Virus record (IMG/VR): IMGVR_UViG_3300037827_000551 | Coordinates: 19,519-83,518 of that record | Direction: 5' to 3' (one strand) | Length of the DNA stretch: 64,000 bases | Origin: a virus | Shown: positions 9,839 through 64,000 of the stretch, piece after piece | Layout of the letters: each line of letters starts with the position of its first letter | Position numbering within the stretch: position 1 is the first letter of the stretch | Translations under genes and position numbers: made by a program | Notes under the pieces: generated by a model | Database searches by the model: none | Seen by the model: the letters and a program-made list of their open reading frames with translations, nothing else | Told to the model about the DNA's origin: nothing

Positions 9839-10221
9839 TCCCATTCGCCATTTTCGCCACAATCTCATTCGCCGTCTGGTTAACCCTCTGGGGCCTCGAT
9901 CGCTTGCCATGGCGGCGATCCGCCATCCCAGATCCAAAGGTTGATCCAGGGCCATCGATCTCGCTGACGCTCAGTGGGGCGACGACATCTTGGACTAACG
10001 ACACCCGCTTCACAGTCACGGGCCTTACCTCGGCGGTAATGACAATAAAGACGAGTGATACGGGATTCACGATTCTAAAGCCGGACCCGATCACGCCGGC
10101 CCCATTTTTCGGTGACGGCCGCACGATCAATCATGTCCGCGATGGTGATACACCTACGACGATCCCGGGATGGGCGTCGACACCGTTCTACCTCGGCGGT
10201 AATGACAATAAAGACGAGTGA
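9835..10221 (+). CDS. hypothetical protein with N-terminal TM helix
   Basis: hydrophobic N-terminus; GGAGG SD; contains a 36-bp direct repeat. Confidence 0.55.
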   Translation: MIPFAIFATISFAVWLTLWGLDRLPWRRSAIPDPKVDPGPSISLTLSGATTSWTNDTRFTVTGLTSAVMTIKTSDTGFTILKPDPITPAPFFGDGRTINHVRDGDTPTTIPGWASTPFYLGGNDNKDE

Positions 10222-10547
10222 TACTTTGTGGTAAACCCGCCAGGTTTATCGGGCGCAGGAACCGGATCGAGATCTGGGCGTGCGACTCGTCCGGTTGCTT
10301 GGCCGAGAAATTTGAGGTTCTAGACCCGGCGAGCACTCAGTGTACAAGCGACAAAAATCTTGTACACTTAGCGGCAACGGAAAATTTTGATTTAATAAAG
10401 AGACCTGCCACCAAAAGCGAACACGCCCGGTGTAAACGGGCGTGCTGCCTTGAGTTGATTCCAGGATTGGCGTCCTGGAAGGCGGCAGGTGGACACGATT
10501 CCTTAGCCTACAAGGACCGAATCCGTGAAACCAATCGTACCCCCTGA
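10218..10547 (+). CDS. hypothetical protein
   Basis: coupled ORF. Confidence 0.45.
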   Translation: MILCGKPARFIGRRNRIEIWACDSSGCLAEKFEVLDPASTQCTSDKNLVHLAATENFDLIKRPATKSEHARCKRACCLELIPGLASWKAAGGHDSLAYKDRIRETNRTP

Positions 10548-11574
10548 CAAGGGAAACGGCAAGTCCACACCACGAAAGATCAGGTATCCCTTCGACCCGA
10601 TCCCGAGGCTTGTCGCCGATTTGGTGGCGAAGAGAACACTTCGGGCGATGGACACCCAAGTCCTGACCCTCCTGCTACGCTACAGATCGCGCCTGCACGA
10701 TTCGTGCTGGACGACGCTCGGTCGGCTTGTCGAGGGCGTAGGACGGTCTGAGGCAACCGTTAAGCGATCTCTCCGCCGACTCAGGGACGCCGGTGTGATC
10801 CTGCATGTCCAGGTTGCCAGTCCCGATCCCGACGAACCTCGCAATCGGACCGGGTGGCGGTTCTACTTCCCATTCATGCAATCGGATGCCTCGCACGCGT
10901 GTGCGCGTAATTTGGGGGTCAATCCCGACCCCCCCCAGAGTGCAGAAATGACCCCCCCTGGGGATCAAGAATGGCCCCCCCCTGGGGTCAATTTTGACCC
11001 CCAAATAGAAACAGAAGGAATTCCCTCCCCTTTGGGGTTAGACAAAATCAACACGACTACGACCTCAGAACCGGAGTCGTCGTTGTGTGATTCTCCTTCG
11101 GATGAAGAAAAAACCACCGAGGAAGAGCAGGCGGAACTGACTTTCAAGGCCGAGAAGCGGTTCAACGCCGAGGGGCTCGATTGGCAGATCGCCAGCCTCT
11201 TGAAAAAGTATCCACGCCATTGGGTGGCGGACGCGCTCAAACGGCCAGGAACCACCACGATGGGTGGCGTCCGCAACACGCTGGAGGAGTACGTGGAGGG
11301 AGGGCGATCGAGGAAACCATCGGCGCCGAAGCGGGTGGAGTTTGACTCGGCCAAGTTCATTGCGACCCTGGATAAACTCGGCTGGCGGCTGGAGTGGGAC
11401 AACAAGCTCGGGCCTGATGGCGGCTTGCGGTGGTCGAAAACCCGGAAGGATGCCGAAAAGCCAAGCCCGGAACTCAAGTCTGAGTATGACACCAACTGGC
11501 GCGACATCGCGACATTTGTGCAATCGTCCCATGATTACCTATGCGTGGCGCCGAAGCTGAGAGTGGTCTCGTGA
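10525..11574 (+). CDS. HTH protein, replication-initiator-like
   Basis: CWTTLGRLVEGVGRSEATVKRSLRRLRDAGVI winged-HTH; iteron-like repeats in the middle of the gene. Confidence 0.7.
   Translation: MKPIVPPDKGNGKSTPRKIRYPFDPIPRLVADLVAKRTLRAMDTQVLTLLLRYRSRLHDSCWTTLGRLVEGVGRSEATVKRSLRRLRDAGVILHVQVASPDPDEPRNRTGWRFYFPFMQSDASHACARNLGVNPDPPQSAEMTPPGDQEWPPPGVNFDPQIETEGIPSPLGLDKINTTTTSEPESSLCDSPSDEEKTTEEEQAELTFKAEKRFNAEGLDWQIASLLKKYPRHWVADALKRPGTTTMGGVRNTLEEYVEGGRSRKPSAPKRVEFDSAKFIATLDKLGWRLEWDNKLGPDGGLRWSKTRKDAEKPSPELKSEYDTNWRDIATFVQSSHDYLCVAPKLRVVS
10910..11006. repeat. four ~23-bp GGGGTCAA-N-GACCCC iteron-like units
   Basis: ggggtcaatcccgacccc / gagtgcagaaatgacccc / ggggatcaagaatggcccc / ggggtcaattttgacccc, bounded by ATTTGGGGGTCAA...TTGACCCCCAAAT. 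Confidence 0.8.
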
Positions 11575-14710: not shown

Positions 14711-15424
14711 ATGTGGTGGGCACCCCATCTCCGAATTCCTGGAGTCAGCGTCAGTTGGCTCCAGGATGAATCCGGCCACGGCGTCTCAGAGATCATCGTT
14801 GAGCCGAGTTATTGGGTCGTGAGCGAGATCATTGCATGATCAACCACGAAATCGCCGCATTGTGGGCCAGCATTTGCCCGACTCCGAAATTAAAGCGTCG
14901 ACTCAAGATCGAGTTCAAGTGCGGTGTACAGTGCGACGAACCGGGCCATTATTGTACTCATGCCACCCGCGAAGGGGCCGTATTTCACATCGAGGCCACG
15001 AATGCGGGAATGCCTCGGAGGATTTTTACGGAGGGCTGTCACTGACATGAGCGATTCCTGGGAAATTAAGCCGCTTCAGTGGTCTCCTGAAGATCTCGAA
15101 TTCATTCGGTTGCGAGACGATCTCGACCGCAGAGCGTCTCACGCCAAGACGATCGGCGGGATTTACGGCGTTTCTCCTGTAGTTTTTGCATGGCACGCAA
15201 TAGCAGTTGGCTATGCATGCGAAGCAGTTTTCGCCCAACTTGTTGCCAATTCGATGCCGAGACAATCCAGAGGTGAGTAATCCCCGCTCATCTCCCGAGG
15301 AGCAACGACTTGAGCGAGAGCGGTTCGCTGTTCTCGCTCAAGCGTTCGAGCGGGCCAAGGCCGAAATAATTGAGCCGGCTCATGCCGCTGTTGCCGCGAT
15401 GGGTGATTTGGTGAAAAACATCAA

Positions 15425-21685: not shown

Positions 21686-21933
21686 TGAGTGTGAATTGTG
21701 GCAAAGTTCTGCCGCTTGGTTCGGTTCACCACTCTATCCACACCGATTACTGGTTCGGCGACACAGTCTATCTCAGGGTTCGCTCCGATCGCCACAAGGG
21801 GATGATCATCGGCATCCGTCTTTGGCCCGACGGCCTGGCTTACAATGTCACGTGGGGTTACAGTGGAGCCGAAACGCCGCATTATGGGATGGAGTTGACC
21901 TCGGAGTTCGAGTCGGATTTGGGGGTTATTTGA
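21682..21933 (+). CDS. hypothetical SH3-like protein
   Basis: FGDTVYL...GMIIGI....Y.VTW. Confidence 0.55.
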   Translation: MMSVNCGKVLPLGSVHHSIHTDYWFGDTVYLRVRSDRHKGMIIGIRLWPDGLAYNVTWGYSGAETPHYGMELTSEFESDLGVI

Positions 21934-22202
21934 TGCCAGGGAATGGACCAGCGCCAACAGGGCAAAAGCCGTCGCCGCCGCCAGCACCGCCATTGCCGAA
22001 GAATTTGACCTATGGGATTCAAGTGACGAACCGAGAAATCAACGCTGTGCCAGCAACGCCTCCTGCCCAATCATGGAAGCCCATGGCTCGTTTGCCGCAG
22101 ATCGACCCGATGGTTATGCTGGAGTTATTGAAGGCCGGCGTGATGACCAAGGACGAGGTTCGGGAGAGGCTGGGGCTGTCGAAAGAGAGCGAGAAGTCAT
22201 GA
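21933..22202 (+). CDS. hypothetical Pro-rich protein
   Basis: ATG coupled to the previous TGA; C-terminal GVMTKDEVRERLGL resembles a portal C-terminal motif. Confidence 0.55.
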   Translation: MPGNGPAPTGQKPSPPPAPPLPKNLTYGIQVTNREINAVPATPPAQSWKPMARLPQIDPMVMLELLKAGVMTKDEVRERLGLSKESEKS

Positions 22203-26342: not shown

Positions 26343-26774
26343 ATGACCAAAGTCAAAATCATAGTCACTGGAATCCCGGAAATCGATCGCCGCCTTCGCA
26401 CGCTTCCTTACCGCGTTCAGCGGAAAGTCGTCATGCAGAGCATGAGAAAAGGCATGAAGATCGTTCTATCCGAAGCCAAGAAGCAGGTTCCTGTTGATAG
26501 TGGGTTGACCAAGGCCAATATCAAACTCCGTGTATTCAAGTTCAGAAAGCGCGACGAACAGGGGCTTCAGGTCTCCGTGATGTCCAATCCGGGATTCATC
26601 CGGGTCACCAAGGCTGGTATTCGCTATTGGTATCCGGCCATCGTCGAATTTGGGGCGAAAAACAGGAAAGCCAATCCGTTCCTCCGCAGGACGTACACAT
26701 CAATGGGTCCAATGGCCCGCAATATCGCCATGATCGCGCTCCGCGATGGGGTTATAAGAGAAGCCGGATGGTAA
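26343..26774 (+). CDS. HK97 gp10-like tail completion protein
   Basis: G..E..R.L..L, PVDSG, Y...VEFG....ANPFLR. Confidence 0.85.
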   Translation: MTKVKIIVTGIPEIDRRLRTLPYRVQRKVVMQSMRKGMKIVLSEAKKQVPVDSGLTKANIKLRVFKFRKRDEQGLQVSVMSNPGFIRVTKAGIRYWYPAIVEFGAKNRKANPFLRRTYTSMGPMARNIAMIALRDGVIREAGW

Positions 26775-26781
26775 CTACTAA

Positions 26782-29700
26782 ATGAGCTGGGTTTTCGTAC
26801 AGCACGCATTCCAGGGTGGCACCGCCTCGCAGGCATCGGTCACGCTCGCTATGACCAGTGTCGTCGTCGGCGATCTTCTGATTGCCACGGTCTCGTTCTT
26901 CACCGGCACCCACACACCGTATTCGCTCAGTGATTCGAGCGGTAAGAACACGTGGACCGCCGGAGTTCTCCAGGGCATAACGACAAACGTGTGCGTCCAG
27001 GAATGGACAACCATTGTCCAGTCCGGTGGCGGCGGATCGATCAACGTCGAGGTCCAGACGGCATCCAGTACCGACTTCATGGGCTTGAACGTCGACGAAT
27101 ATTCCTTCCTCCAGGGCGCCACGATCACACTCGGGACGCTCGCCCATGCAACCGGCGCCTCACCCACGGCGATCTCCAGTGGCAACGTGAGTTGGACCGG
27201 AACCGGCAATTTCCTCCTGTGGGGGGCGGCGGCATCCGCGAACGCGACGGCCACGTGGTCCGCCGGCACCAATTTCAACCTTCGCTGCAATCAACCGCAT
27301 GCCACGGGCTACGAAGCCCTGATGACCGAGGATCAACTCAATCTCACGTCGGCCGCATCGCCGATCCCAATCACAGCCGGGTCAACGGCGACTTCCGGAG
27401 ACTGGGTGGCGATCGGCCTCGCATTTTTAGAAACGCCAGCGATCGCGATTACACCGGCCACCGTCCCCGCCAACCATTCCGGGCACATCACGCTCACCCT
27501 GGTCGGAACGGGGACGTCGTGGCTTGGCAGTCCGACCTGGACCGTCACTGGGGCCGGAACCTCGTATGTCGCCGGGTCGGCAATCGTTACCACGAATACG
27601 GCCGCGACGATCAAGGTGACGACGTCTGGCTCGACGGGGCTCGCGACGGTCTCTGACGGCACGTTTTCCGGTCAGTTCACCGTCGCCACGGCAACCCTCT
27701 CTGTCGTGCCGGCGGCCGTTGGGACAAGTGTGACAACCAGTCTTACGTTAACCGGAACGAACACGCTCTGGACAACCGAGACGGCGTCAACCCTGTTCTC
27801 GGCGTCAGGCGTCTCGGGAACATCGATCACTGGGGCGAGTATCACTGTCTCGTCCAATACGGCCGCCACAGCCAATCTCGTCAGCGGTTCGACTGTCGGC
27901 ACCGCGACGATCACCGACAATAGCACGACAGCCACGGATACGGTTGTTGTCGAGGCCAATTTCCCAACGATCACGCCGAGTCCGACGATTGTTCCCGTGG
28001 GCATCGGCACAACGAATTACGCAACTTTGCCCAGCAGCTTGGCATCGTCGCCTGTTCTGGTCACCCTGGTCGGATTCAACACGGGCTGGACCGGCGGCAC
28101 GACATTCACCGTTTCTGGGGTTGCTGGCTGCTCGGTCGTCGCGGCATCGACAGTTATTACCTCGGCGACCCTGGCTTCGTTCTGGCTCGAAACGGCTAAG
28201 GCTACGGGCACGCTTACGATCACCGACGGCTCCTATGAGTGCACAATCCAGGTCGTTCCCGGAGCGATTGTCGGGCAGGCTTATGTATGCCGAAGTGCCG
28301 AGACCTTATATTTCTTTACCTATCCGGCAACCGACGCTCCGCTGACGCTTGCTGGCACCTCATCAAGTCAGTCGCTAACCTATGCCATCGTCAATACGAC
28401 GACCACTAACGGCGGCACTGGTTACACCAGCCCCATCGCCTCGATCGTCGGCGGCGTTTCGATCACTCTGACGGCTGGCGGCACAGGCTATGGTTCGGCT
28501 CCGACCGTGGAAATCACCGGTGGTGGCGGCACGGGCGCCAGTGCGACCGCCCTGATCTCGGATGGAGCCGTCTCTGGATTCACGGTTACGCCTGGAACTG
28601 GCTATCAGTCGGGCATGCCGATCACGATCACCATGATCGGCGTCGGCACGGGGGCGGCAGCCACGGCGACAGTTATTGCCAATGGCGGTACTGGATGCCA
28701 ACTGGGCACACCGATCGTGTCCGCCGGAGTCATCACTGGGATTCCAGTTGTAACGACCGGCAGCGGTTATACGGGCGCTCCGTCAATCACGATCACTGAT
28801 TCGACAGGAGTGGGAGCCACAGCGACACCGATCTTGGGGGGCAATCCACTCCTGATCACGGGCGGCACCATGAACCCGGCCGCTCCGATCACCGCGATCA
28901 ACGGCGTACCCACGATCAAGGTCAATGGCAATTCCGTCGAAGTGCCTTTGTATATTAACTCTTATCCCATCAGCAATCCCGGAACGGCTTACGCTTCAGC
29001 TCCAATTGTAACCGTATCTGGGGGCACGGGCACCGGGGCGGCATGCACGGCGGCGATCACGGTAGCAGGCCAAGCCAGCCTCCTGCTGACCAATGGCGGT
29101 AGCGGGTATACGACTCCGCCAATCGTCACCCTGAATGCCAGTTCGTCCGGCTCCCCGGCTGTGGTTCAGACCTTCATCGCTGGTGGCGCGGTCGTCGGCT
29201 TCCGCGTCACTCAGTCGGGCACCTACGCTACGACACCGACAGTGACGATCACGGGTGGTGGCGGTGGCACGGGACTGGCCATTACCGCATCAAACGCCGT
29301 GGGCTGCGTTTATTCAATCACGGCGTCATGTATCGGAAGTAATTATCTATCGACGGACACGATCACAGTCTCGGTGGCCGCCGGGGCGGGCACAACAGCC
29401 GTGGCGAACTCGCTCATTGGGCCGATCTGGGGAAGCCAGTCCCTGAGTGCCCCATTCGTGGCCTATCAGACCATGTGCGGCGGCGTGGCGTCTATCGTAG
29501 TTCAAGCCGGAGGTAGCGGTTACACCAATCCCACGGCGACGGCCAGTGGAGGCGGAGGAACCGGTCTCGTACTGGGAACGCCAATCATCGCTGACGGCGT
29601 GATCACCTCAGTTTTGGTGTCGGGAACTGGACCTGTTTCCAATCAAGTCGGCATCGTCGATGCCAATGGGACGGGCAGCGGGTTCGTTGGCTATTACAAC

Positions 29701-39402: not shown

Positions 39403-41337
39403 ATGTATGATCGCACGCGAGAGACTAGTTCTACAAATGGAACCGGCACCATTTCGCTTCTCGGGGCCGTCACGGGGTATCAGTCCTTCGCGGTGAGCGT
39501 GGGCGATGGCAATCAGTCGTATTACACGATCGCGGATCAGACTGGGGGGAACTGGGAGGTTGGGATTGGGACCTACACCCTCTCTGGATCAACCCTATCC
39601 CGCACTACGGTTCTCTCCTCATCCAATTCCAACGCCCTGGTCTCATTCGGATCTAATGTCAAGGATGTCTTCGTCACCTGTCCCGCCACGATCCTGACTG
39701 AGATAGGCACCGGTGGTGGGACTGTCACGTCATTCAACACCGGCGCGGGACTCACTGGTGGTCCTATTACAACAACCGGAACCGTCGCCGTTAACTCTAA
39801 CGGCATCACGGCCGGCCTATTTCGCCAGTCAAATTCATTTAGTCTCGTGGGAAACCCCACGAACGCCACAGCGAACGTCGCCGATATCTCCCTGGGATCA
39901 GGGTTGTCGTTCTCCGGAAATTCCCTGGTTGCGGCTGTCGGCACTGGCACCGTGACCCAAGTCAACACGGGCACCGGGCTTGTGGGTGGCCCGATCAACA
40001 CGACGGGAACGATCAGCCTGAATTCACCTGTGGTGGTCGCCAACGGTGGCACGGGTCTCATGACCCTGCCAAATGGGGCGGTTCTGATCGGCAACGGGAC
40101 GAGCGTCGTCAACTTCGCCGTCACGGGCACGAACGGCCAACTCCTGATCGATCAGGGCTCAGGCAACAACCCAGCTTTCGAGCCCATGTCAGGCGATGCG
40201 GTTATTGCGAAAACCGGAGCGATCACGGTTAGTAAGACCAATGGAACGTCCTTTGCTCCGTCGGCCACGATTGATGCGACTAACGCCGGCAATATCACCA
40301 ACGGCACCCTTGTTGTCGCCCACGGTGGCACGAGCATTAATTCGACGTCGCCGTACGCCCTTTTGTGCGGTGGAACCAATTCCACGGCACCTCTTCAGCA
40401 GGTCGGCAGCCTCGGCAATTCCGGCTATGTACTGACCTCGAACGGCAATGGGTCGCTTCCAGTCTGGACATCGCCATCATCAGGGGGCACCGTCACCTCG
40501 ATCACTGCGGGGACTGGACTAAATGGGGGTACGATCACGACGTCCGGCACGTTCAGCCTGAATTCACCTGTGGTGGTCGCCAACGGTGGCACGGGAAATA
40601 CTAGCCTGACGGCCTACGCGGTTCTTTGCGGCGGCACGAATTCGACGGCGGCCCTTCAGCAAGTGAGTGGATTAGGGACCAACGGACAGGTGCTCACATC
40701 GGCTGGAGCAGGGGCATTGCCGGCATGGCAGCCCGGCGGTGGCGGATCGGGCACCGTGAACTCGGGGACCACCCCGCAGGTCGCCTGGTACGCATCCAAT
40801 GGCACGACCGTCTCAGGTCGAGCTGGACGCTACGCCCTCTTCACGATGACCGCCACGGCGACGGTAGTCAATACGGGCACTGAAACCACCCTGATCGGCT
40901 CGGGTACTGGCTCGCTCACGATTCCAACAGCGGATATTATCGCGGGCAAGACAGTCCGTTTTAGAGCCATGGGCTATTGGTCGAGTTTGGGGGCGGTCGC
41001 GGGTAATGTCACGTTTAACTTCAAGGCTGGCTCGAATGTGCTGGCGACGAGCGGGGCGGTCGCGGTCCCCTTAAGCCTAAGTAACGACTACTGGGAAGTG
41101 ACGGCCGAGATCACGATCTACTCAATCGGGGGCTCCGGCACTGTTTGGACCCAAGGGAAATTCCTATCCGAAACCCCGGCACTCGGGGCCTTTGTCGCGG
41201 GCATGGTGACGACGACGCCATCCAATTTCGCGGGGACTCCGCTCACGAATCCTCTTGATCTCACGATCACGTGGTCGGTGCCGTCGTCGTCAAACACGAT
41301 CACTTGCACTAACGTCGCTGTTGACACCATAAACTGA
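39403..41337 (+). CDS. tail fibre protein (possible real start at ATC 39388)
   Basis: DR.RET.ST.GTGTI.L.GAV.GYQSF...WEVGIGT N-domain; GTVTS..GL.GG and NGGTG repeats; exact 43-bp repeat at 40013-40055 and 40553-40595. Confidence 0.85.
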   Translation: MYDRTRETSSTNGTGTISLLGAVTGYQSFAVSVGDGNQSYYTIADQTGGNWEVGIGTYTLSGSTLSRTTVLSSSNSNALVSFGSNVKDVFVTCPATILTEIGTGGGTVTSFNTGAGLTGGPITTTGTVAVNSNGITAGLFRQSNSFSLVGNPTNATANVADISLGSGLSFSGNSLVAAVGTGTVTQVNTGTGLVGGPINTTGTISLNSPVVVANGGTGLMTLPNGAVLIGNGTSVVNFAVTGTNGQLLIDQGSGNNPAFEPMSGDAVIAKTGAITVSKTNGTSFAPSATIDATNAGNITNGTLVVAHGGTSINSTSPYALLCGGTNSTAPLQQVGSLGNSGYVLTSNGNGSLPVWTSPSSGGTVTSITAGTGLNGGTITTSGTFSLNSPVVVANGGTGNTSLTAYAVLCGGTNSTAALQQVSGLGTNGQVLTSAGAGALPAWQPGGGGSGTVNSGTTPQVAWYASNGTTVSGRAGRYALFTMTATATVVNTGTETTLIGSGTGSLTIPTADIIAGKTVRFRAMGYWSSLGAVAGNVTFNFKAGSNVLATSGAVAVPLSLSNDYWEVTAEITIYSIGGSGTVWTQGKFLSETPALGAFVAGMVTTTPSNFAGTPLTNPLDLTITWSVPSSSNTITCTNVAVDTIN

Positions 41338-42512
41338 TGCTGGGAATCGCACCCGAATCCGCGACTCCGATTTCCGCTCTCTGGCCACTGGAAGTTCCTG
41401 GCCCGGCTCCGAGCGGTGGCCCTGGCATCGGCTGGCTTGCGTGCGGTTGTTGCGCGGGTGGCTGTTCGGTAACCATTTGCATAACCGGCTGCCCGGACGG
41501 AACCCCACTCCCTGGCGCCAGCGTTACAGTCTTGAGCGGTGGCATTCCGGTCAGCGATTGTACCACGTCAGTGATCGCCGGTTGTTGCGTGGTATCGATC
41601 CCGTCAAGCGGACTGTACGAGGTCATGATTGCCGCCAGCGGTTATATCACTTATAGTATAACCCAGACCTTGACATGCGGTGATTCGTACGTGATCGAGA
41701 TGACCCCGACCGGGTTGTCGGCCGTCATGTTTTCGATCGGCGGCTGCAATGCGATATTTTCCATGCTCCCCGGCGCGCTCTGCGAGGTCGCGGGGCAATC
41801 CTGCACTACAGACGCACTTGGCCAGTGCACGATCTCGTACGTGCCCGCTGGAACTTATACTTGGACTGTGAGCAAATCTCGTTATGCCACACAGAGCGGC
41901 TCTATTACAGTTTCAGCTTGCGGTACAGGATTCGTAACTCTTAACCTTTTGCCGGCGAGCGGATATGCCTTCGTCTATTCCAGCCCAGGAATTTGCTGCT
42001 ACCAGGACCCGGCTCCGACCACGCTTTCGTTGACCGACACAGCAACTGGGGCGTGCGCGATGGCGTACAGTTCCTTGACCCAGGTCTGGACTGGGTCAGT
42101 GACATGGGACTTCCCATCTTACTGCGCTTTATCGGCATCTCCAGGATCTGTGATTACTTACACGTGGCCATCAACTGTCGCTGGCTATCCTGGTTGCGGA
42201 GTTGGAATTAGCATCGCTCCACCGTCGTGTGCCAATGGGCTTGAGGTTAGTAATTTCGCTCCACCGCCGAATCCATGCTGCATTAATCAGGTTGGATACT
42301 ATTTGACCGAATGCTGTGTCGGTGACCCGTCTTGTGGGCCGCAGTCATTGACCCTGAGTGCCGACGTTCCGGTCGACGTCGAGCAGGTCATGACACCATG
42401 TGACCCGACTGGGATTTTCGACGGTGATGGCATCTATATTTGCAGTTGCGGAAACACGGGTGGTTGCTGCTATTCGGCTGGAGCCGCCAACACAATCACG
42501 ATCACGGAGTGA
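41337..42512 (+). CDS. Cys-rich tail-associated protein with carboxypeptidase-regulatory-like domains
   Basis: MLGIAP.S.TPISAL N-motif; PLPGA.V.V...Y.V.....GY twice; many CC pairs. Confidence 0.65.
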   Translation: MLGIAPESATPISALWPLEVPGPAPSGGPGIGWLACGCCAGGCSVTICITGCPDGTPLPGASVTVLSGGIPVSDCTTSVIAGCCVVSIPSSGLYEVMIAASGYITYSITQTLTCGDSYVIEMTPTGLSAVMFSIGGCNAIFSMLPGALCEVAGQSCTTDALGQCTISYVPAGTYTWTVSKSRYATQSGSITVSACGTGFVTLNLLPASGYAFVYSSPGICCYQDPAPTTLSLTDTATGACAMAYSSLTQVWTGSVTWDFPSYCALSASPGSVITYTWPSTVAGYPGCGVGISIAPPSCANGLEVSNFAPPPNPCCINQVGYYLTECCVGDPSCGPQSLTLSADVPVDVEQVMTPCDPTGIFDGDGIYICSCGNTGGCCYSAGAANTITITE

Positions 42513-42514
42513 TT

Positions 42515-42904
42515 ATGGAGTGGCCCGAGGCTCTTGAATCCGAGGTGGCTCGCACCAAGAATGAACGACTCCGCGAACTGTGCGGCGAGACACATCCGGA
42601 TCACGTGGTCCACCGCCAGCGAGTCTTGGCTAAGGCAATAAATGGACCGAAAGCCCTCGCGTATCCGTCATTGCTAGAGCAGGCGGGAAACGCCATTGGG
42701 GCTCTCGGTCGAGTTGCTGGAGCGGCTATTCAGGGGAAACCGGTTCTGGTTGATATTGACGAGAAGAACCGACGGCTGGCGATTTGTGACACATGCGAGT
42801 TTTTTGATCACGCTCGGGAGCGATGTTCAAAGTGTGGATGTCCCGCCAAGCTCAAGGTGGCACTAGCTACCGAGATTGGGCACTGTCCTATCGGACTTTG
42901 GTGA
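42515..42904 (+). CDS. DUF6171-like Cys-cluster protein
   Basis: RRLAICDTC...RCSKCGC...K......CPIGLW. Confidence 0.65.
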   Translation: MEWPEALESEVARTKNERLRELCGETHPDHVVHRQRVLAKAINGPKALAYPSLLEQAGNAIGALGRVAGAAIQGKPVLVDIDEKNRRLAICDTCEFFDHARERCSKCGCPAKLKVALATEIGHCPIGLW

Positions 42905-43045
42905 TCTGGGGCATGTAATACGGTTCCAGTTTCGGCGAATGGTTCGGTTTCCCCGCATGTAGATCGGGGACCGAGAGCCGCTCGATGATGAGCGACGCCG
43001 CGATAACCGAGGTGGCAAGCACAAGCCCGACGGCAAGGCACTGGA

Positions 43046-43513
43046 TCATTCCACGCATTTCCGATTCTCCTCAATAAGCCCAAGAGCCGTTCTTAAGCAC
43101 TCTTCCCCAAGTCTGACACAGTCAAATGAACGTTTCTCGCATTCATTGCATCTCTGGGATGCCAGGGAATGGAACAGCGCCAACAGGGCAAAAGCCTCAA
43201 ATGAACGTTTCTCGCATTCATTGCATCTCTGGGGGCAGACCCAAGATGGGTTACCGATGATCGCGGCTACATCTTGGGCGGTCGCAGTTTCCAGGTTTAA
43301 CTGTTCAAGTTTGGCGAAGATGTCATCGCTGCGCTCGTCACCCAGTACTTCAACATCTTGTGGGTACTGCGATTTCCACCGCGATGCCACCGACCGGACT
43401 TGCTCTCGCTCATTCATGATTTGCACGCTATCGACTCCATCAAGAACCTGGGTGATCGACCGAAGATTTTCCGATCGGCTTTTTTCGACCGCCGTCGAGG
43501 TGGCATGCGACAC
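43046..43513 (-). CDS. hypothetical CxxC protein carrying an in-frame 75-bp insertion/duplication
   Basis: QRCNECEKRSF occurs twice. Confidence 0.6.
   Translation of the reverse strand: MSHATSTAVEKSRSENLRSITQVLDGVDSVQIMNEREQVRSVASRWKSQYPQDVEVLGDERSDDIFAKLEQLNLETATAQDVAAIIGNPSWVCPQRCNECEKRSFEAFALLALFHSLASQRCNECEKRSFDCVRLGEECLRTALGLIEENRKCVE
43122..43233. repeat. two 37-bp direct repeats flanking a 38-bp copy of 21933-21970
   Basis: TCAAATGAACGTTTCTCGCATTCATTGCATCTCTGGG at 43122-43158 and 43197-43233. Confidence 0.95.
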
Positions 43514-43954
43514 AGGCTGATCTTGTCGCTTTGGGGTTGCCTACGGCATTGACGATAACTCCGACGAGTTGATCATTGAGATAAAGTTCGTTGGTTATGG
43601 GGTCGAAACAATCGAAGCGGATCGCGTCACCGCAAATCGAGCACGACCTCTCTTTTGCAACCGTCATCATAATCCGTCCTAGTTCTGGTTTTGCCTGAAT
43701 TTTCGCCCATTCCTTGAAAATCACGTCGGGATCAAAATTCGTATTATTGGCGGCATTGAACCGCACCACGACAGCCTTGATCTCTCGTTCCCACACTTCA
43801 TACGATTTGAGAAAGTTGGCTTGGGACACGGGCCAGATCAGGGCGAATAGCTCGGTTTTCACTTGTTCGTGGATTCCGGACACCATTGCCACTGGATTGC
43901 GATTGAAGCGGAGGAGTGCGAGAAAGGGATCAAACTGAGCGTCGTCGTCGATCC

Positions 43955-44329
43955 TCATTGCCACTTCCTCCACAAAAGCACCGCGCTCAATCCAATAGCC
44001 CACAGAACCCACGACGATGGTTCGGGAACGCCTCCGCCTTGTGGTGGGCCTGGCGGTGACGAAGACTGCGTCACGTGTCCTGGAGTCGACGGAGGCGGCT
44101 CGCTCGCGACGAGTGACTCCTTGATCCATTCGCCGAGCCGGGGATGATAGTGAGTGAATCGCAGGGGATTGAGTTCGTACCTGGCCTCGATATAGATCAC
44201 AAATGGCGTGGACGGTAGGATGTCGCCGTGGGTCTCGCGATAGGCTTCGAGGACCTTGTTTTCGTGGGCCTCAAAACTCCGCGTGATCCACTCGGGGTTG
44301 AATTTGGGTAGCGGGTCAACTCGGGACAT
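43955..44329 (-). CDS. PEP-CTERM sorting-domain protein
   Basis: C-terminal VPEPSS + hydrophobic helix + RK. Confidence 0.8.
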   Translation of the reverse strand: MSRVDPLPKFNPEWITRSFEAHENKVLEAYRETHGDILPSTPFVIYIEARYELNPLRFTHYHPRLGEWIKESLVASEPPPSTPGHVTQSSSPPGPPQGGGVPEPSSWVLWAIGLSAVLLWRKWQ

Positions 44330-44424
44330 TGGGGTCTCCTCAGCAAGAACAAGAGAAATACTTGGCTAGTTTGTCTGGGGCGATTAGGTTTCCAGGGCGT
44401 CAGTCGCCACGGTTCGCTTGTTGC

Positions 44425-44928
44425 TCACTGGGTTATCCTTCCGGGTTTGTCTTCTGCCGCGAAGTCCATTCCAGATCGCAAGCCATTGACACTGTCAAGA
44501 ATCGCTGATGGGGCATAACCACCGCGAACCGTGGCGAGCCAACCTTTATAAGAGGCGGTCTCGCCCCCAAAGGCACTGGCCCCATTATCGACCAGCCATT
44601 GGGCCAACTCTTCAGGCGTGGCGAATGCGGGGCTGATTGGGGTCCCTTCGGTCGTGTTCTCATACATCATGTAATGGGTTGGCTCCTCGGTCCACACTGG
44701 ACGATAATAACCTTGTTCCGGAGGATTGCCCGACCAATCCCAATAATAACGATGGTCGGCCTTGTATTCGGCGCAATCAGGATGGGTTCCATCTCGCCAC
44801 GCATCACATTTTTGAAGCCACTCCTCGGCGGCGGAATCGTAATCCTTGTCGTACATTGGCAGGAAGTGGCCATCCTCGTTTAGTGGATGCTGCCAATCTT
44901 TGGGAACTCGTCTCACTTCGCGACCCAT
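44425..44928 (-). CDS. conserved phage protein (MGREVRRVP..W.HP / E.T.EGTPISP.F)
   Basis: recognisable motifs; GGAG SD. Confidence 0.75.
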   Translation of the reverse strand: MGREVRRVPKDWQHPLNEDGHFLPMYDKDYDSAAEEWLQKCDAWRDGTHPDCAEYKADHRYYWDWSGNPPEQGYYRPVWTEEPTHYMMYENTTEGTPISPAFATPEELAQWLVDNGASAFGGETASYKGWLATVRGGYAPSAILDSVNGLRSGMDFAAEDKPGRITQ

Positions 44929-44972
44929 TCGGAATTCTCCTCTGGAGGGATAAACTAGGACTCGAAAATGGC

Positions 44973-45260
44973 TTAGCCCTTCTCCCAATAATGTGGAATC
45001 GGTTCGCCTTTCTTGGCATTGCGGCAAACATTAGCAATCCATTTCAGTTTTTTCTCCAAAAGGTCCGGATTATTATGGCGATAATTGTACTCGACTTCTT
45101 GGAGAGAAGTTTTCTCTAGAATTTTGTGGATCACATCGTCAAAGTAGCGAGCAAGAACGAGAAGTCGAAACTCGTCCGAGTCATGAGAACCACACTGAAG
45201 TCGACTCTGAATCCGCATGAAATCGGGGTCATCCAAGCTGACGCGAAGGATCGGATTCAC
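44973..45260 (-). CDS. hypothetical protein
   Basis: AAGGAG SD before GTG. Confidence 0.55.
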   Translation of the reverse strand: MNPILRVSLDDPDFMRIQSRLQCGSHDSDEFRLLVLARYFDDVIHKILEKTSLQEVEYNYRHNNPDLLEKKLKWIANVCRNAKKGEPIPHYWEKG

Positions 45261-45326
45261 GGTTTAACTCCTTGTGATGTTCGATTGATCGGTGGCCTGT
45301 TCTCGCTTGGTGAACAATACGCAAAC

Positions 45327-45358
45327 TGTATTGACTTGTCAAGACACTTTGGTAATAT
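45327..45358 (+). promoter_or_regulatory. promoter with tandem TGTCWWGACA-like operator
   Basis: TGTATTGACT+TGTCAAGACA; TTGACT-N16-TAATAT. Confidence 0.65.
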
Positions 45359-45400
45359 TTGAGCAGGTAACAGGACTCCCTATTCATAAGGTGAATCACG

Positions 45401-45604
45401 ATGTCTAGAAGCAACCCACGTATTCGTCGCGGTTATCGATTTACCCCCCAGGCCGTCCGCGAAATCAATGCCCTGTCCGTTCACTTTGAGGGATTGGATA
45501 AAACACGGGTAATTGAGAATGCAGTCCATGAAAAGGCTGTACGGGAAGGACTTGCTGAGGATTCTCCGAAAAAACCTTTGAAAAATTCTAGCAAACTGTC
45601 TTGA
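45401..45604 (+). CDS. ribbon-helix-helix regulator
   Basis: RGYRFTPQAVREINAL......KTRVIENAV. Confidence 0.65.
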   Translation: MSRSNPRIRRGYRFTPQAVREINALSVHFEGLDKTRVIENAVHEKAVREGLAEDSPKKPLKNSSKLS

Positions 45605-45629
45605 CACGTCTAGACAGTTTCGATATAAA
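45597..45629 (+). promoter_or_regulatory. near-consensus sigma70 promoter with tandem palindromic operator
   Basis: TGTCTTGACA+CGTCTAGACA; TTGACA-N17-TATAAA. Confidence 0.85.
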
Positions 45630-45683
45630 TTTGGCTGTGGAGACGAGGAGAATCGGGACGACGCGGATGGGGGGGACGAAGCA

Positions 45684-46274
45684 ATGGATCAAGATTCTTC
45701 TGCAAGAGAACCTACCAAGCAAGCTGACGAAAGGCGACCAGAAAAAGCAAGCATGAATCCAAAACTGATCGAACTGAAGGGCGGCGAGTTCATCGACCCG
45801 TCATTTATCATGGCTGTGAGCTGGGGGCCAAATCCAATGAATGCACTTGAAAACTCCGACAGTCTCAAATGCATGAAGCCTTGGGTCACAATCTTCTGGG
45901 GAGAACAGCGATCGACCTGCATTAGATGTGGCAGCACATCAGAGGCCAAGGATTATTGTGGCAGTATCGCGGCAATGGTCAATCAGAATCAGCAAGACAT
46001 GAAGGCCGAGGAAGCCGCCAAACTGCTCGCTGCCTGCAATCGGACAGCCGGTCAACTAATTGCGATTTTGATGAAGGGTGGCCTTGGAGTCTCAGAGGCG
46101 GCGTACAAAGAGCACGACGCCTACAAGGCCGCATTTCGTGCAATGGTCGGCCGCGATCCAGGGTGGGAAGATTACGAAGTTATGGGTGTTCATGATAACG
46201 AGCACAGAGAACCGGTTAGCGGAATGACGATCCGTGAGTGCCATCGGACCTCGTTTAAGGACTATTTTGAATGA
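45684..46274 (+). CDS. hypothetical protein
   Basis: first ORF after the promoter. Confidence 0.6.
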   Translation: MDQDSSAREPTKQADERRPEKASMNPKLIELKGGEFIDPSFIMAVSWGPNPMNALENSDSLKCMKPWVTIFWGEQRSTCIRCGSTSEAKDYCGSIAAMVNQNQQDMKAEEAAKLLAACNRTAGQLIAILMKGGLGVSEAAYKEHDAYKAAFRAMVGRDPGWEDYEVMGVHDNEHREPVSGMTIRECHRTSFKDYFE

Positions 46275-46957: not shown

Positions 46958-47917
46958 ATGAATGATGAAATAGAGGCCCGTAGCTTCGAGAGTGGAGTCT
47001 ACGGAATGAACGTGATACCAACCGAAGGACTTACCAAAGAGCAGGTATTCGCCCTCCGTGGTATCGGAGCCTCAGATGCGGTGATCATATGTGGAAAGGG
47101 CCATCTCGGTTCATCGCGGCTCAAACTGTGGTACGAAAAACGGGAAGGGAAACCCTCGGGCGATCATGACGAATTCACCCGGAATCTTTTCCGTTGGGGA
47201 AACTGGCTTGAGGATGACATCGCGGCTTGTTTTGAGCAAGATCTGGGACTCAAGATCTCGGAAACACAGGTCTTGGTGGCGCACCCTGAATATCCGTGGG
47301 CAACAGCGCTGATCGACATGGTCACCGAGGACGGTCAGATCGCCGATTCCAAGGCTCACACCTGGATTGCGGCACGCAACTTAGTCGACGGCAACCCAAA
47401 TACACTGCCTGCCAAAGCCCACATTCAGGCGGCGTGGCAGATGTGGGTTTGCGACAAGCCATCAGCAAGATGGGCGTGCTTTGACGGAGCCAACCTTAAG
47501 CTCATGCACTTCCTGATCGATCGCGACGATGAACTGATCGAGACTGTCGTCGAGCTTGTCAGCCGATTCAAGGAAAGCGTTGACCTCGGCATTATGCCCA
47601 ACGAGTTTGACCCCGAAGATTGCGACTATCTGAAAAACCGGTTCACGCGGGTTAATGAGCAGGCGGAACTCGTTATCGAGGACCACGAACTTATTGATCA
47701 CGCCCGGCTTTATTTCGAGGCCAAGGAAGCCAGGTCCTACGCGGATGATCAGGTCGCTGTGCATGAGGCGGCATTACGACTGGCGACCGGCGATGCGGCG
47801 TTGGCTCGAATTGGGCCATATACGACAAAGCGGACGGAGCGGTCAAGGAAGGCGTCCACGACCAAGGCGTCGAGTTGGGTGGAGTTCAAGGTAATTGGTC
47901 CGAAGGAGGGGAGATGA
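46958..47917 (+). CDS. YqaJ / lambda-exonuclease-like recombination nuclease
   Basis: GIGASDA, L.LW.EK, G..LE, HPEYPW..A..D, DSK, Q..WQM. Confidence 0.85.
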   Translation: MNDEIEARSFESGVYGMNVIPTEGLTKEQVFALRGIGASDAVIICGKGHLGSSRLKLWYEKREGKPSGDHDEFTRNLFRWGNWLEDDIAACFEQDLGLKISETQVLVAHPEYPWATALIDMVTEDGQIADSKAHTWIAARNLVDGNPNTLPAKAHIQAAWQMWVCDKPSARWACFDGANLKLMHFLIDRDDELIETVVELVSRFKESVDLGIMPNEFDPEDCDYLKNRFTRVNEQAELVIEDHELIDHARLYFEAKEARSYADDQVAVHEAALRLATGDAALARIGPYTTKRTERSRKASTTKASSWVEFKVIGPKEGR

Positions 47918-57217: not shown

Positions 57218-57389
57218 GTAAGCACGTCGAGTGGTATCAGCCTGGCTACTGGCAACAACAGATCCGCCTGGCCCTTGCGGACATCAGCGTCAGATGCCCC
57301 TGGTGTGATGGCAACGGGTGCGACATGTGCGGCCAGTCCGGTCTTGTCTCGCCGCAGTTGGCCGCGAAACACAAGGAGGGCGCCATCCC

Positions 57390-57914
57390 ATGACCATCAC
57401 GGCAATTGTCGCCATGGACTACAACGGTCTGATCGGCTCGGGCGGCAAGCTTCCATGGCACATCCCAGACGACTTGAGGCGGTTCAAGGATTACACGATC
57501 GGCAAACCGTGCCTGATGGGACGGAGGACGTGGGAATCGCTTGGCGGAAAGCCTTTGCTTGGGCGAAAGAATATCGTGATCAGTCGCACTCTTTCACCAG
57601 GGTTTCAAGATGCCGGCGGATTTCACCCATTCTCGGTGTACTGGTCTCCGGTAACCGCGATCATACACCTAGATGCTGTTGGAACACCCGAGCTTTGCAT
57701 CATCGGCGGTGGCGAGGTTTACCGGTCGACATCGGATTTATGGGACAAGGTGATCGCCACGTGGGTTCACGGGGATTACCAGGGCGACACGTGGTTTCCC
57801 CACGAAGAACTCTTGGCGGATGAATGGCAAATTGTGGGAGATTCGATCCGAGTCATAAAGACATCCGTAAGCTGCACGACTGTTACTTATGAGCGCAGGA
57901 GGCCCATCCCATGA
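57390..57914 (+). CDS. dihydrofolate reductase
   Basis: IVAM..NG.IG..G.LPWH.P.DL..FK..T.GKP..MGR.TWES, PL.GR.NIV, IIGG, GDT.FP. Confidence 0.92.
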   Translation: MTITAIVAMDYNGLIGSGGKLPWHIPDDLRRFKDYTIGKPCLMGRRTWESLGGKPLLGRKNIVISRTLSPGFQDAGGFHPFSVYWSPVTAIIHLDAVGTPELCIIGGGEVYRSTSDLWDKVIATWVHGDYQGDTWFPHEELLADEWQIVGDSIRVIKTSVSCTTVTYERRRPIP

Positions 57915-63178: not shown

Positions 63179-63291
63179 CCAACACCGAGTTCGTCGACAT
63201 CCTGCTCTGGAACCGGAATGTCGGATCAGCCGCGAGGACGAAGCGGGAAGCGACGCGAACCTTCTTGTTGCTCCAAAATAATTCCCCGAAC

Positions 63292-63324
63292 TGTCTTGAC
63301 ACGTCTAGACACTTTCCGTATGTT
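63292..63324 (+). promoter_or_regulatory. promoter with the same tandem operator as 45597
   Basis: TGTCTTGACA+CGTCTAGACA; TTGACA-N17-TATGTT. Confidence 0.8.
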
Positions 63325-63592
63325 TTGGGTGCTGGATGTGACTGAGACCTAAGTGGAAAGCAAGAGAAAAGCCATGGTGAGCAACACAGAATCACGCGAG
63401 GCAACGGTTGACAATTCGCCCAGGTGGATTTGCCGATGGAAAATCAAGTTGACCGGAATGTGCGGGCAGGGGCCGCCGGCAACCAAAGAACATGCCCAAG
63501 CCCTAGCCGACTATGGAAACGCCAGGTCTCATGGTACTACATATTGGATCGAACCTGTTTTTACACCAGACCCCCAACCCGGAGACTAAGCC

Positions 63593-64000
63593 ATGTCCAA
63601 AGTTCAAATTATGCCTGATCGCCTCGAAAGATTTTCGTCTGTCCGCCTTCGCAAGGGGAAGGGCGAAGGCGGGAATGGTCACATCGATGTCTGCGCCATG
63701 CAGGCCGCCGACTGGCTCGCTGGTGGAGATGGGAAAACCGACGCTCCTGAATGCGTATGCCCTGTAATCGGGGTATACGTAACTCAGCTCAACGACTCGG
63801 AATTTTTCGCGAATCACCGCGATGACTTGAAGCCGTTTATTCCGAGGATCATCGGGACGAGGGGCGACCTGGCGTCCGTGGTTGCAAGAGCGGAAATTGC
63901 GGCCAAGCATGTTGCCCAGTACGCCGCCAAGTGTGCCGAGTCCGCCGCCGAGTACGCCGCCGAGTCCGCCACCAAGTGTGCCAAGTACGCCGCCGAGTCC
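63593..64000 (+). CDS. Ala-rich repeat protein (runs off the window end)
   Basis: MSKVQ...CAMQAADWLAGGDGKTDAPECVCPVIG...A(A/T)(E/K)(Y/S/C) repeats. Confidence 0.8.
   Translation, partial: MSKVQIMPDRLERFSSVRLRKGKGEGGNGHIDVCAMQAADWLAGGDGKTDAPECVCPVIGVYVTQLNDSEFFANHRDDLKPFIPRIIGTRGDLASVVARAEIAAKHVAQYAAKCAESAAEYAAESATKCAKYAAES

What the first reader, a model, noticed from the sequence alone, without database searches (positions are those of the whole stretch)
43122..43233. Repeat-spacer-repeat unit whose 38-bp spacer copies the first codons of a late-region gene 21 kb away
Seen: two identical 37-bp repeats flank ATGCCAGGGAATGGAACAGCGCCAACAGGGCAAAAGCC, which matches 21933-21970 at 37/38 and begins exactly at that gene's ATG. 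The 75-bp unit keeps the minus-strand ORF in frame, and the minus-strand mRNA would be antisense to the target's start. The geometry (repeat duplicated, 30-40-bp insert) resembles a Cas1-Cas2 integration product, and the repeat has an AATGAA..TTCATT hairpin, but the repeat is also coding sequence (CxxC). Inference: off-target spacer integration into phage DNA, a template-switch insertion, or a newly born antisense/mini-array regulator.
Basis: partly seen in the sequence, partly recalled or inferred. Interest (0 to 1): 0.7.

Follow-up and report, generated by a model that had tools for sequence, protein, structure and literature searches.

The report
Spacer-sized self-insertion scar in phage gene
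A soil phage carries, in frame inside a small zinc-finger gene, a 38-base copy of the start of one of its own late genes flanked by an exact 37-base duplication of the insertion site, which is the footprint expected if a bacterial CRISPR spacer-inserting enzyme hit the phage DNA instead of a CRISPR array.

Summary
Exact 37-bp direct repeats (43122-43158, 43197-43233) enclose 38 bp that match 21933-21970 at 37/38. The 75 bp are in frame in a minus-strand gene (43046-43417).

The repeat is not an imported CRISPR repeat. A profile of 34 homologues maps both copies onto the same conserved Cys-x-x-Cys positions, and none of the 34 has the duplication. Rfam gives no CRISPR repeat family, and the hairpin is no better than shuffles.

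The same phage holds a second, older unit outside the window: a 36-37-bp duplication (32-33/37) around 32-33 bp copied from the giant virion gene. The equal duplication length, prespacer-sized inserts and homology-free joints favour off-target Cas1-Cas2 integration.

Neither the enzyme nor the host was found. No raw reads were available, so spanning reads were not checked. A working mini-array is not supported.

Earlier notes of this scan report similar scars on other DNA (11 findings in at least 9 genomes). I did not check those. My literature searches found no such report for phage genomes.

The parts
43122..43158 (.). Copy 1 of the duplicated target site (37 bp, or 36 if the last G came in with the insert). 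Encodes residues 87-99 (QRCNECEKRSFD) of the carrier protein.
   Evidence: Maps to profile positions 64-83 of the homologue family.
43159..43196 (+). 38-bp insert, a same-orientation copy of the first 38 nt of the late gene at 21933 (37/38). Read on the minus strand it adds the foreign residues AFALLALFHSLAS.
43197..43233 (.). Copy 2 of the duplicated target site (37 bp, identical to copy 1). Encodes residues 62-74.
   Evidence: Lies within the stretch that maps to profile positions 4-77.
43046..43417 (-). Carrier gene, 123 aa. A diverged member of a large uncharacterised family of small zinc-finger-like proteins (typical length about 105-115 aa). It would be 98 aa without the 25-codon unit.
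   Evidence: (gene call of 123 aa). No Pfam or PHROGs family.
21933..21970 (+). Donor (protospacer-like) segment: the first 38 nt of a small + strand gene in the structural region.
21933..22202 (+). Donor gene, 89 aa, Pro-rich N-terminus, no family found. Its ATG overlaps the stop codon of the upstream ORF.
28572..28603 (+). Donor of the second unit, inside the 2378-aa virion gene. The second unit itself lies outside the window at record positions 14882-14987: a 36-37-bp duplication (32-33/37 identical) around a 32-33-bp insert (30/32 or 31/33 to this donor), 69 nt in frame in a 101-aa + strand gene.

Best explanation
The unit is a scar of off-target CRISPR adaptation.

Proposed sequence of events (all steps inferred):
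1. During an infection, or in a lysogen, a Cas1-Cas2 integrase whose arrays have 36-37-bp repeats captured a 38-39-nt fragment of phage DNA, the start of the late gene at 21933.
2. It joined the two ends of that fragment to opposite strands of the phage genome, 36-37 bp apart, inside the segment that codes for a zinc knuckle, rather than at a leader-proximal CRISPR repeat.
3. Gap filling then duplicated the 36-37 bp between the two attack sites.
4. The genome survived because 37+38 = 75 nt is in frame and falls in the linker between the two Cys pairs of a small zinc-finger-like protein.

The same kind of event had happened earlier in this lineage at record positions 14882-14987.

What is shown: the geometry, the native coding nature of the duplicated segment, the origin of the insert, and the second unit. 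What is inferred: the enzyme, the cell in which it happened, and the order of steps.

The unit most likely has no CRISPR function. It is a tolerated insertion.
For: (a) Two exact 37-bp copies enclose 38 bp that are a 37/38 copy of the phage's own DNA 21 kb away.

(b) The joints share at most 1 nt with the donor flanks.

(c) A profile built from 34 homologues, with the query left out, hits the protein in two pieces. Profile 4-77 matches residues 1-75 (95.4 bits). Profile 64-83 matches residues 87-106 (12.2 bits, E 6.7e-6). Both repeat copies are therefore the same ancestral coding segment, and none of the 34 aligned homologues carries a duplication.

(d) A second unit has the same duplication length (36-37 bp), a different target sequence (best 11/36 identity in either orientation) and a different self-derived insert of 32-33 bp. 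It is more diverged, so it is an independent and older event.

(e) In a scan of the whole record for 36-nt windows with at least 25 matches at offsets 60-85, these two units stand out. There were 17 hits against 0 in each of 5 codon-shuffled controls. Thirteen lie in two tandem-repeat protein regions, and two are weak protein-level repeats with no donor match.

(f) Off-target integration by Cas1-Cas2 outside arrays is documented for E. coli, as described in passages of PMC7054753, PMC11788318 and bioRxiv 10.1101/148544 that cite Nivala et al. 2018.

(g) Insert sizes of 32-39 nt and a 36-37-bp duplication lie in the usual range of CRISPR spacers and repeats. This point is recalled, not tested here.
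Against: - No Cas1, Cas2 or Cas4 is encoded in the record, which is 78% complete. The host is unknown, so the key prediction that the host CRISPR repeat is 36-37 bp is untested.
- The two donors share no evident PAM: TTG and CGT upstream, GTC and ATC downstream. With n = 2 this is inconclusive.
- The two target sites share no motif, and the hairpin in the repeat is not significant (z -1.66). Nothing explains why these sites were hit.
- No near-identical uninterrupted allele was found.
- No raw reads were available to confirm the junctions.
- Nivala et al. 2018 could not be read.
Confidence: 0.6

Rival explanations
1. Illegitimate recombination without Cas1-Cas2. A break with staggered nicks about 37 nt apart (for example from a phage or host nicking endonuclease) was filled in, and a stray 38-bp fragment was captured by end joining. 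Alternatively, a replication template switch copied 38 nt from the late gene and resumed 37 nt behind.
For: The phage encodes a YqaJ-type exonuclease. Earlier notes of the scan also mention an HNH gene (not checked by me). No Cas gene or host CRISPR array could be tied to the event. The enzyme in the favoured model is inferred only.
Against: The joints have at most 1 nt of homology, which is poor for template switching or annealing. Two independent events share the same 36-37-bp duplication length, and both inserts are spacer-sized. That points to a fixed molecular ruler rather than random nick spacing.
Confidence: 0.2
2. An integrase other than a host Cas1-Cas2 made both units, for example a casposase-like or unknown enzyme of the phage itself (the record is only 78% complete) or of a co-resident element.
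For: 22% of the genome is missing by CheckV's estimate. The two units show a ruler but no known sequence preference.
Against: The record gives no hit to Cas1, RVT_1, tyrosine recombinase or serine recombinase. The only rve hit is sub-threshold, 12.9 bits against a cut-off of 32.6. From recall, known transposases and casposases give target duplications of 2-15 bp, not 36-37.
Confidence: 0.07
3. A working virus-borne mini-CRISPR array or repeat decoy (Racr-like). The unit is transcribed and handled by host Cas proteins, either to target a competing phage that carries the A variant of the late gene or to soak up Cas proteins.
For: The architecture is repeat-spacer-repeat with CRISPR-like sizes. 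The spacer differs by one base from the carrier's own copy. Virus-borne mini-arrays whose spacers target close relatives are known (PMC6858448, passages read).
Against: The repeat is a conserved coding segment of the carrier gene's family. It matches no Rfam CRISPR repeat family at E up to 10. It was not found elsewhere in the viral or metagenome collections. There is no leader, because the unit lies inside an ORF. The spacer matches the carrier's own genome at 37/38, which would be self-targeting. The second unit's repeats differ completely in sequence, so no single Cas6-type enzyme would read both.
Confidence: 0.05
4. Whatever its origin, the unit has been taken into use as an antisense regulator. 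The leftward mRNA of the carrier gene pairs with codons 1-13 of the late gene's mRNA and delays its translation.
For: The orientation is right: the insert is + sense, the carrier gene is on the minus strand, and there are 38 nt of complementarity with one mismatch.
Against: There is no expression data; none of the 23 listed runs is RNA. The second unit is a sense copy in a + strand gene, so antisense action is not a shared property. The unit shows no sign of age or conservation, with 0 differences between the repeats.
Confidence: 0.05
5. Assembly artefact: the unit does not exist in any real molecule.
For: Depth is low (word depth of about 2-8 for the laid contigs). None of the 31 listed contig pieces (of 47 laid) bridges the unit.
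Against: An artefact would need reads that join the repeat end to the insert start and the insert end to the repeat start, with no shared sequence. The insert differs from the donor by one base. The unit is exactly in frame. A second, diverged unit of the same geometry cannot be a graph artefact. The X1 contig ends at 43151, 30 nt into the repeat, where a k=31 graph would break if the repeat has two contexts. The k value is recalled and this reading is an inference, so it is a weak hint only.
Confidence: 0.03

Closest known systems
Off-target (non-canonical) spacer integration by Cas1-Cas2, 'neo-CRISPR' units (Nivala, Shipman and Church 2018, Nat Microbiol 3:310). The paper is not held. I know it from citing passages and from recall.
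   Same: A spacer-sized fragment is inserted outside any array. The target is duplicated over a repeat-like length. The joints carry no homology, and the result is a repeat-spacer-repeat unit.
   Different: The published case is E. coli over-producing Cas1-Cas2, with integration into the bacterial chromosome (passages). Here the target is a phage genome in nature and the inserts come from the phage itself. The units lie in frame in protein-coding genes, and the enzyme is unidentified.
Virus-borne mini-CRISPR arrays (Medvedeva et al. 2019, PMC6858448; passages read)
   Same: One spacer between two repeats on a viral genome without cas genes, with a spacer that matches viral DNA.
   Different: In the known arrays the repeats and leaders resemble the host's arrays, and the spacers target related viruses rather than the carrier. 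Here the repeat is the carrier gene's own conserved coding sequence, there is no leader, and the spacer matches the carrier itself at 37/38.
RNA anti-CRISPRs (Racrs) and solitary repeat units in phages (PMC10651486; only the start of the abstract seen in the search listing)
   Same: Repeat-like elements on phage genomes without cas genes.
   Different: Racrs mimic host CRISPR repeats. This repeat matches no Rfam CRISPR repeat family, and the two units of this phage have unrelated repeats.
Transposon and casposon target-site duplications (recalled)
   Same: A staggered attack on the two strands followed by gap repair duplicates the target.
   Different: Those duplications are 2-15 bp, and the inserted element encodes or is mobilised by a transposase. 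Here the duplication is 36-37 bp and the insert is a 38-bp copy of a gene start.

Membership tests
Off-target Cas1-Cas2 integration product (neo-CRISPR unit) | Insert of prespacer size (about 30-40 bp) | tested here: met
   38-39 bp here and 32-33 bp in the second unit.
Off-target Cas1-Cas2 integration product (neo-CRISPR unit) | Target duplicated over a fixed, repeat-like length, the same in independent events of one system | tested here: met
   36-37 bp in both units, with unrelated target sequences.
Off-target Cas1-Cas2 integration product (neo-CRISPR unit) | Duplication length equals the repeat length of the CRISPR arrays of the cell in which it happened | not testable with these tools
   Host not identified. 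The genome-contig scans gave nothing or a chance hit.
Off-target Cas1-Cas2 integration product (neo-CRISPR unit) | Joints without homology between insert and target | tested here: met
   At most 1 nt is shared at either joint.
Off-target Cas1-Cas2 integration product (neo-CRISPR unit) | The duplicated segment is pre-existing local sequence, not imported | tested here: met
   Both copies map to the same conserved profile positions of a family with 552 homologues. None of the 34 aligned homologues is duplicated.
Off-target Cas1-Cas2 integration product (neo-CRISPR unit) | PAM next to the donor segments | tested here: inconclusive
   There are only two donors: TTG and CGT upstream, GTC and ATC downstream.
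Off-target Cas1-Cas2 integration product (neo-CRISPR unit) | A Cas1-Cas2 integrase is available | not testable with these tools
   Not encoded in the 78%-complete phage record. The host is unknown.
Virus-borne mini-CRISPR array | Repeats resemble the CRISPR repeats of the host | tested here: not met
   No Rfam CRISPR repeat family at E up to 10. No other exact copy in viral contigs or metagenome contigs. The repeat is conserved coding sequence. Limits: the host's own arrays were not seen, and genome contigs was not scanned with the repeat.
Virus-borne mini-CRISPR array | The spacer targets related viruses or other elements, not the carrier | tested here: not met
   The spacer matches the carrier's own genome at 37/38.
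Virus-borne mini-CRISPR array | Leader with promoter in front of the array (archaeal cases) | tested here: not met
   The unit lies inside an ORF, at residues 62-99 of 123.
RNA anti-CRISPR (Racr) / solitary repeat unit | The repeat mimics a host CRISPR repeat in sequence and hairpin | tested here: not met
   No Rfam CRISPR repeat match. The hairpin is -3.6 kcal/mol, and 16 of 200 shuffles fold at least as well.
Transposable element insertion | The element has terminal inverted repeats or a transposase, and a short (2-15 bp) target duplication | tested here: not met
   The insert is a 38-bp copy of a gene start and the duplication is 36-37 bp. No transposase, RT or recombinase family scores over its cut-off in the record.

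The most novel reading that the evidence does not exclude
Phage genomes keep a fossil record of mis-aimed CRISPR adaptation. The host's Cas1-Cas2 writes phage-derived prespacers back into the phage DNA itself, repeatedly in one lineage (two clear units here, perhaps a third). Each scar's duplication length reports the repeat length of the CRISPR system the phage met. The scars are a so far undescribed source of in-frame insertions and duplications in phage proteins, and possibly the seeds of phage-borne arrays.
Probability: 0.5. Interest if true: 0.8.

Novelty: new variant of a known kind. Interest (0 to 1): 0.6.

Why it matters
If the reading is right, CRISPR adaptation is not only a memory device of the cell. 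It is also a mutagen of the invading genome, and phages can survive the hit and carry it on.

Three consequences follow:
- It would give a natural counterpart to the laboratory finding of off-target Cas1-Cas2 integration.
- It would give a sequence-only clue to the CRISPR type of an unknown host, through the duplication length.
- It would give a route by which repeat-spacer-repeat units first arise on viral genomes.

It also shows how short foreign peptides and duplicated motifs, here a duplicated Cys-x-x-Cys knuckle, enter phage proteins.

Five literature searches turned up no report of such scars in phage genomes. Earlier notes of this scan list similar cases in at least 9 genomes (not checked by me), so a systematic survey is feasible.

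Tried and rejected
Uninterrupted allele
- The exact 37-mer gave no hit in viral contigs or metagenome contigs.
- The protein-guided scan of viral contigs with the carrier protein found no relative, and neither did the scan with a neighbouring gene.
- The word-based protein search found only the protein itself.
- Only the full HMMER search found distant homologues.

Spacer in a host array or a related phage
- A 22-nt piece of the insert gave one hit in metagenome contigs. It was a chance match in an unrelated contig with no array.

Host
- TerL gave no relative in genome contigs.
- A degenerate motif of the carrier family gave one chance hit, in an adenylation enzyme of an Actinomycetota MAG.
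- The capsid protein has only distant relatives (at most 37% identity) in cultured phages of many hosts.
- The carrier protein has no match in cultured phages.
- The host stays unknown.

Read support
- Only Logan contigs were on offer.
- None of the 31 listed pieces (16 more were not shown) bridges the unit. No joints or left-out letters were reported.
- This neither confirms nor refutes the junctions and says nothing about an allele without the insert.

CRISPR-repeat likeness
- Rfam gave none.
- The hairpin is not significant.

Function of the carrier family
- No Pfam, PHROGs or PDB relative, beyond weak Cys-pattern matches to C2H2 fingers.

Other units in the record
- Two further offset hits (record 12318 and 49223) are protein-level repeats without donor matches.

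Shared target motif
- None between the two units.

Papers
- Nivala 2018 and Nunez 2015 are not held.
- PMC10011333 had nothing on the point.
- Supplementary files were not asked for. Those of Nivala 2018 may list natural candidates that bear on novelty.

Full report
WHAT IS THERE

The window is positions 19519-83518 of an 83,518-bp IMG/VR virus record (CheckV completeness 78%, GC 55%).

- At 43122-43158 and 43197-43233 there are two identical 37-nt copies, 75 nt apart start to start.
- The bases outside the copies differ, so the duplication is at most 37 bp.
- The 38 nt between them match 21933-21970 at 37/38, in the same orientation. The one difference is at insert position 16: A in the insert, C in the donor.
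- The G that ends copy 1 is also the base before the donor's ATG. The unit can therefore be read as 37+38 or as 36+39.
- Self-BLAST E-values within the record are 4e-13 for the repeat pair and 6e-12 for the insert/donor pair.
- With up to 3 mismatches, the 37-mer occurs only at these two places in the record.

THE CARRIER GENE

The unit lies in a minus-strand gene, 43046-43417, of 123 aa. The longer 155-aa ORF starts upstream, but both the public gene call and the homologues start at the Met of MNEREQ. The 75 nt are 25 codons: residues 62-74 are copy 2, 74-87 the insert, and 87-99 copy 1.

The word-based search saw only the protein itself. A full HMMER search of 1.84 billion representatives found 552 proteins at E up to 0.001 and 38 at E up to 1e-10. 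Most are 100-115 aa long.

I aligned 34 of the 149 listed homologues, chosen because their matched stretch ran past the first Cys pair. The family has a helical N-terminal part, an IIGN-x-SW motif and two Cys-x-x-Cys pairs. None of the 34 has a duplicated knuckle.

I then built a profile from these 34 with the query left out. It hits the query in two pieces:
- Profile positions 4-77 match residues 1-75 (95.4 bits).
- Profile positions 64-83 match residues 87-106 (12.2 bits, E 6.7e-6).

Both repeat copies are therefore the same ancestral, family-conserved coding segment (Q-R-C-N-E-C-E-K-R-S-F). The 13 residues between them are foreign.

The family has no Pfam, PHROGs or solved relative and no member among cultured phage records. 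The carrier is a diverged member: where at least 90% of the aligned sequences have the third Cys, it has Gly.

THE DONOR

21933-21970 is the start of an 89-aa + strand gene in the structural region. Its ATG overlaps the TGA of the upstream ORF and follows a G-run. The start is plausible but not proven.

The carrier gene is on the minus strand, so its mRNA would carry the complement of the donor's first 38 nt.

A SECOND UNIT IN THE SAME PHAGE

I checked it myself.

- At offset 69 there are two 37-nt copies that are 32-33/37 identical.
- They enclose 32-33 nt that match record 48090-48121/2 (window 28572-28603, inside the 2378-aa virion gene) at 30/32 or 31/33, again in the same orientation.
- The 69 nt are in frame in a 101-aa + strand gene.
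- The target sequence is unrelated to the first: best 11/36 identity in either orientation.
- The second unit is more diverged, so it is an older and independent event.
- Both units fit a duplication of 37 (inserts 38 and 32) or of 36 (inserts 39 and 33).

I scanned the whole record for 36-nt windows with at least 25 matches at offsets 60-85. There were 17 hits, against 0 in each of 5 codon-shuffled controls. Thirteen lie in two tandem-repeat protein regions. Two are weak protein-level repeats without a donor match. The other two are these units.

WHAT IT IS NOT

Not a mini-array or repeat decoy:
- The repeat matches no Rfam family of CRISPR repeats. Only two chance-level matches to unrelated families appear at E up to 10.
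- Its hairpin (-3.6 kcal/mol) is matched or beaten by 16 of 200 shuffles.
- The exact repeat was not found in viral contigs or metagenome contigs.
- The unit has no leader, and its spacer matches the carrier itself.
- By contrast, the virus-borne mini-arrays of Medvedeva et al. have host-like repeats and leaders, and spacers against related viruses (PMC6858448, passages). Racrs mimic host repeats (PMC10651486, start of the abstract in the listing).

No candidate enzyme in the record:
- There is no Cas1, Cas2, Cas4, reverse transcriptase, tyrosine recombinase or serine recombinase.
- The only rve hit is sub-threshold, at 12.9 bits against a cut-off of 32.6.

Probably not an assembly artefact:
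- An artefact would need reads joining unrelated sequence.
- The insert differs from the donor by one base.
- A diverged second unit exists.
- However, I could not check reads.

READS

- 23 runs in 16 studies hold words of 41600-44600, and none of them is RNA.
- I laid the contigs of X1-X4, which come from four studies (root, soil, leaf litter and rhizosphere). They are nearly all identical to the window where they cover it: 42 of the 47 laid pieces are 99% or more alike.
- None of the 31 listed pieces (of 47) bridges the unit, and no joint was reported.
- X1's contig stops at 43151 and X2's at 43158, both inside or at the end of repeat copy 1. A k=31 graph would break there if the repeat has two contexts (the k value is recalled). 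This is only a weak hint.

MECHANISM

A staggered attack on the two strands 36-37 bp apart, insertion of a 32-39-nt fragment and gap repair is what Cas1-Cas2 does at a CRISPR repeat.

Integration outside arrays has been shown for E. coli over-producing Cas1-Cas2, and it has been proposed to seed new arrays. I take this from passages of PMC7054753, PMC6698737, bioRxiv 10.1101/148544 and PMC11788318, all citing Nivala et al. 2018. The paper itself is not held.

The favoured reading is this. A Cas1-Cas2 complex of a host with 36-37-bp repeats took a prespacer from the abundant phage DNA and integrated it into phage DNA. The genome survived because the unit is in frame and sits between the two Cys pairs. 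Only in-frame hits in genes are expected to survive, which fits the totals of 75 and 69 nt.

Shown: the geometry, the native origin of the duplicated segment, the self origin of the inserts, and the recurrence with a constant duplication length.

Inferred: the enzyme, the cell and the steps.

Against the reading, or still open:
- No host and no array were found.
- No PAM is shared by the two donors.
- No target motif is shared by the two sites.
- No uninterrupted near-identical allele was found.

I put this reading at 0.6. The rivals are:
- Cas-independent staggered break with fragment capture, or template switch: 0.2.
- Another integrase: 0.07.
- Working mini-array or decoy: 0.05.
- Antisense regulator: 0.05.
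- Assembly artefact: 0.03.

NOVELTY

The kind of event, off-target spacer integration, is known from the laboratory. A natural, repeated occurrence in a phage genome, with self-derived inserts written in frame into genes, is a new variant.

Five searches found no such report. 'Ectopic spacer acquisition' in the papers listed refers to positions inside arrays, judging from titles and abstract starts.

Earlier notes of this scan describe similar scars in at least 9 genomes. I did not test those, and they are not independent evidence.

Noticed in passing
window 43893-43927 (record 63411-63445), in the next gene upstream on the minus strand: A 35-nt stretch matches an apparently intergenic stretch at record 10755-10789 at 33/35 (E 4e-7). 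It is flanked by an exact 10-nt direct repeat at offset 72, which equals 37+35. The downstream copy of that 10-mer holds what may have been the gene's original ATG. The rest of the would-be 37-nt duplication matches only 10/27. The background rate of exact direct repeats of 10 nt or more is about 1e-5 per base per offset. This may be a third, reworked unit or a different kind of insertion. Unexplained.
   Followed up: partly
window 43046-43417 and proteins P0002-P0150: The carrier gene belongs to a large family of small proteins: 552 representatives at E up to 0.001, about 105-115 aa. They share an IIGN-x-SW motif and two Cys-x-x-Cys pairs. The family has no Pfam or PHROGs family, no solved structure and no member in cultured phage records.
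   Followed up: partly
window 45594-45621 and 63289-63316: A 28-nt stretch occurs twice at 27/28 identity. It holds a TTGACA and an inverted repeat. One copy lies in the divergent region between the leftward gene cluster and the rightward early genes. It may be an operator/promoter site.
   Followed up: no
record 1-351 and window 63576-63926 (record 83094-83444): The two ends of the record share 351 nt at 91% identity. Related repeats lie at record 26400-26860 on the other strand. This looks like a repeated Ala/Gly-rich coding module rather than terminal repeats.
   Followed up: no
window 40013-40055 and 40553-40595: An exact 43-nt repeat, 540 nt apart, inside the 644-aa gene at 39403-41337.
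   Followed up: no
window 10026-10061 and 10189-10224: An exact 36-nt direct repeat with 127 nt between the copies. The spacing is too wide for a spacer-type unit.
   Followed up: no
window 46958-47917 and 57318-57914: The phage encodes a YqaJ-type exonuclease (E 1.5e-13) and a dihydrofolate reductase (E 3e-40).
   Followed up: no
window 40000-46000 in runs X1-X4: Contigs that are almost all identical to the window where they cover it (42 of 47 laid pieces 99% or more alike) occur in runs of four studies labelled root, soil, leaf litter and rhizosphere metagenome. The same phage strain thus appears in several plant and soil samples, though these may belong to one campaign.
   Followed up: partly
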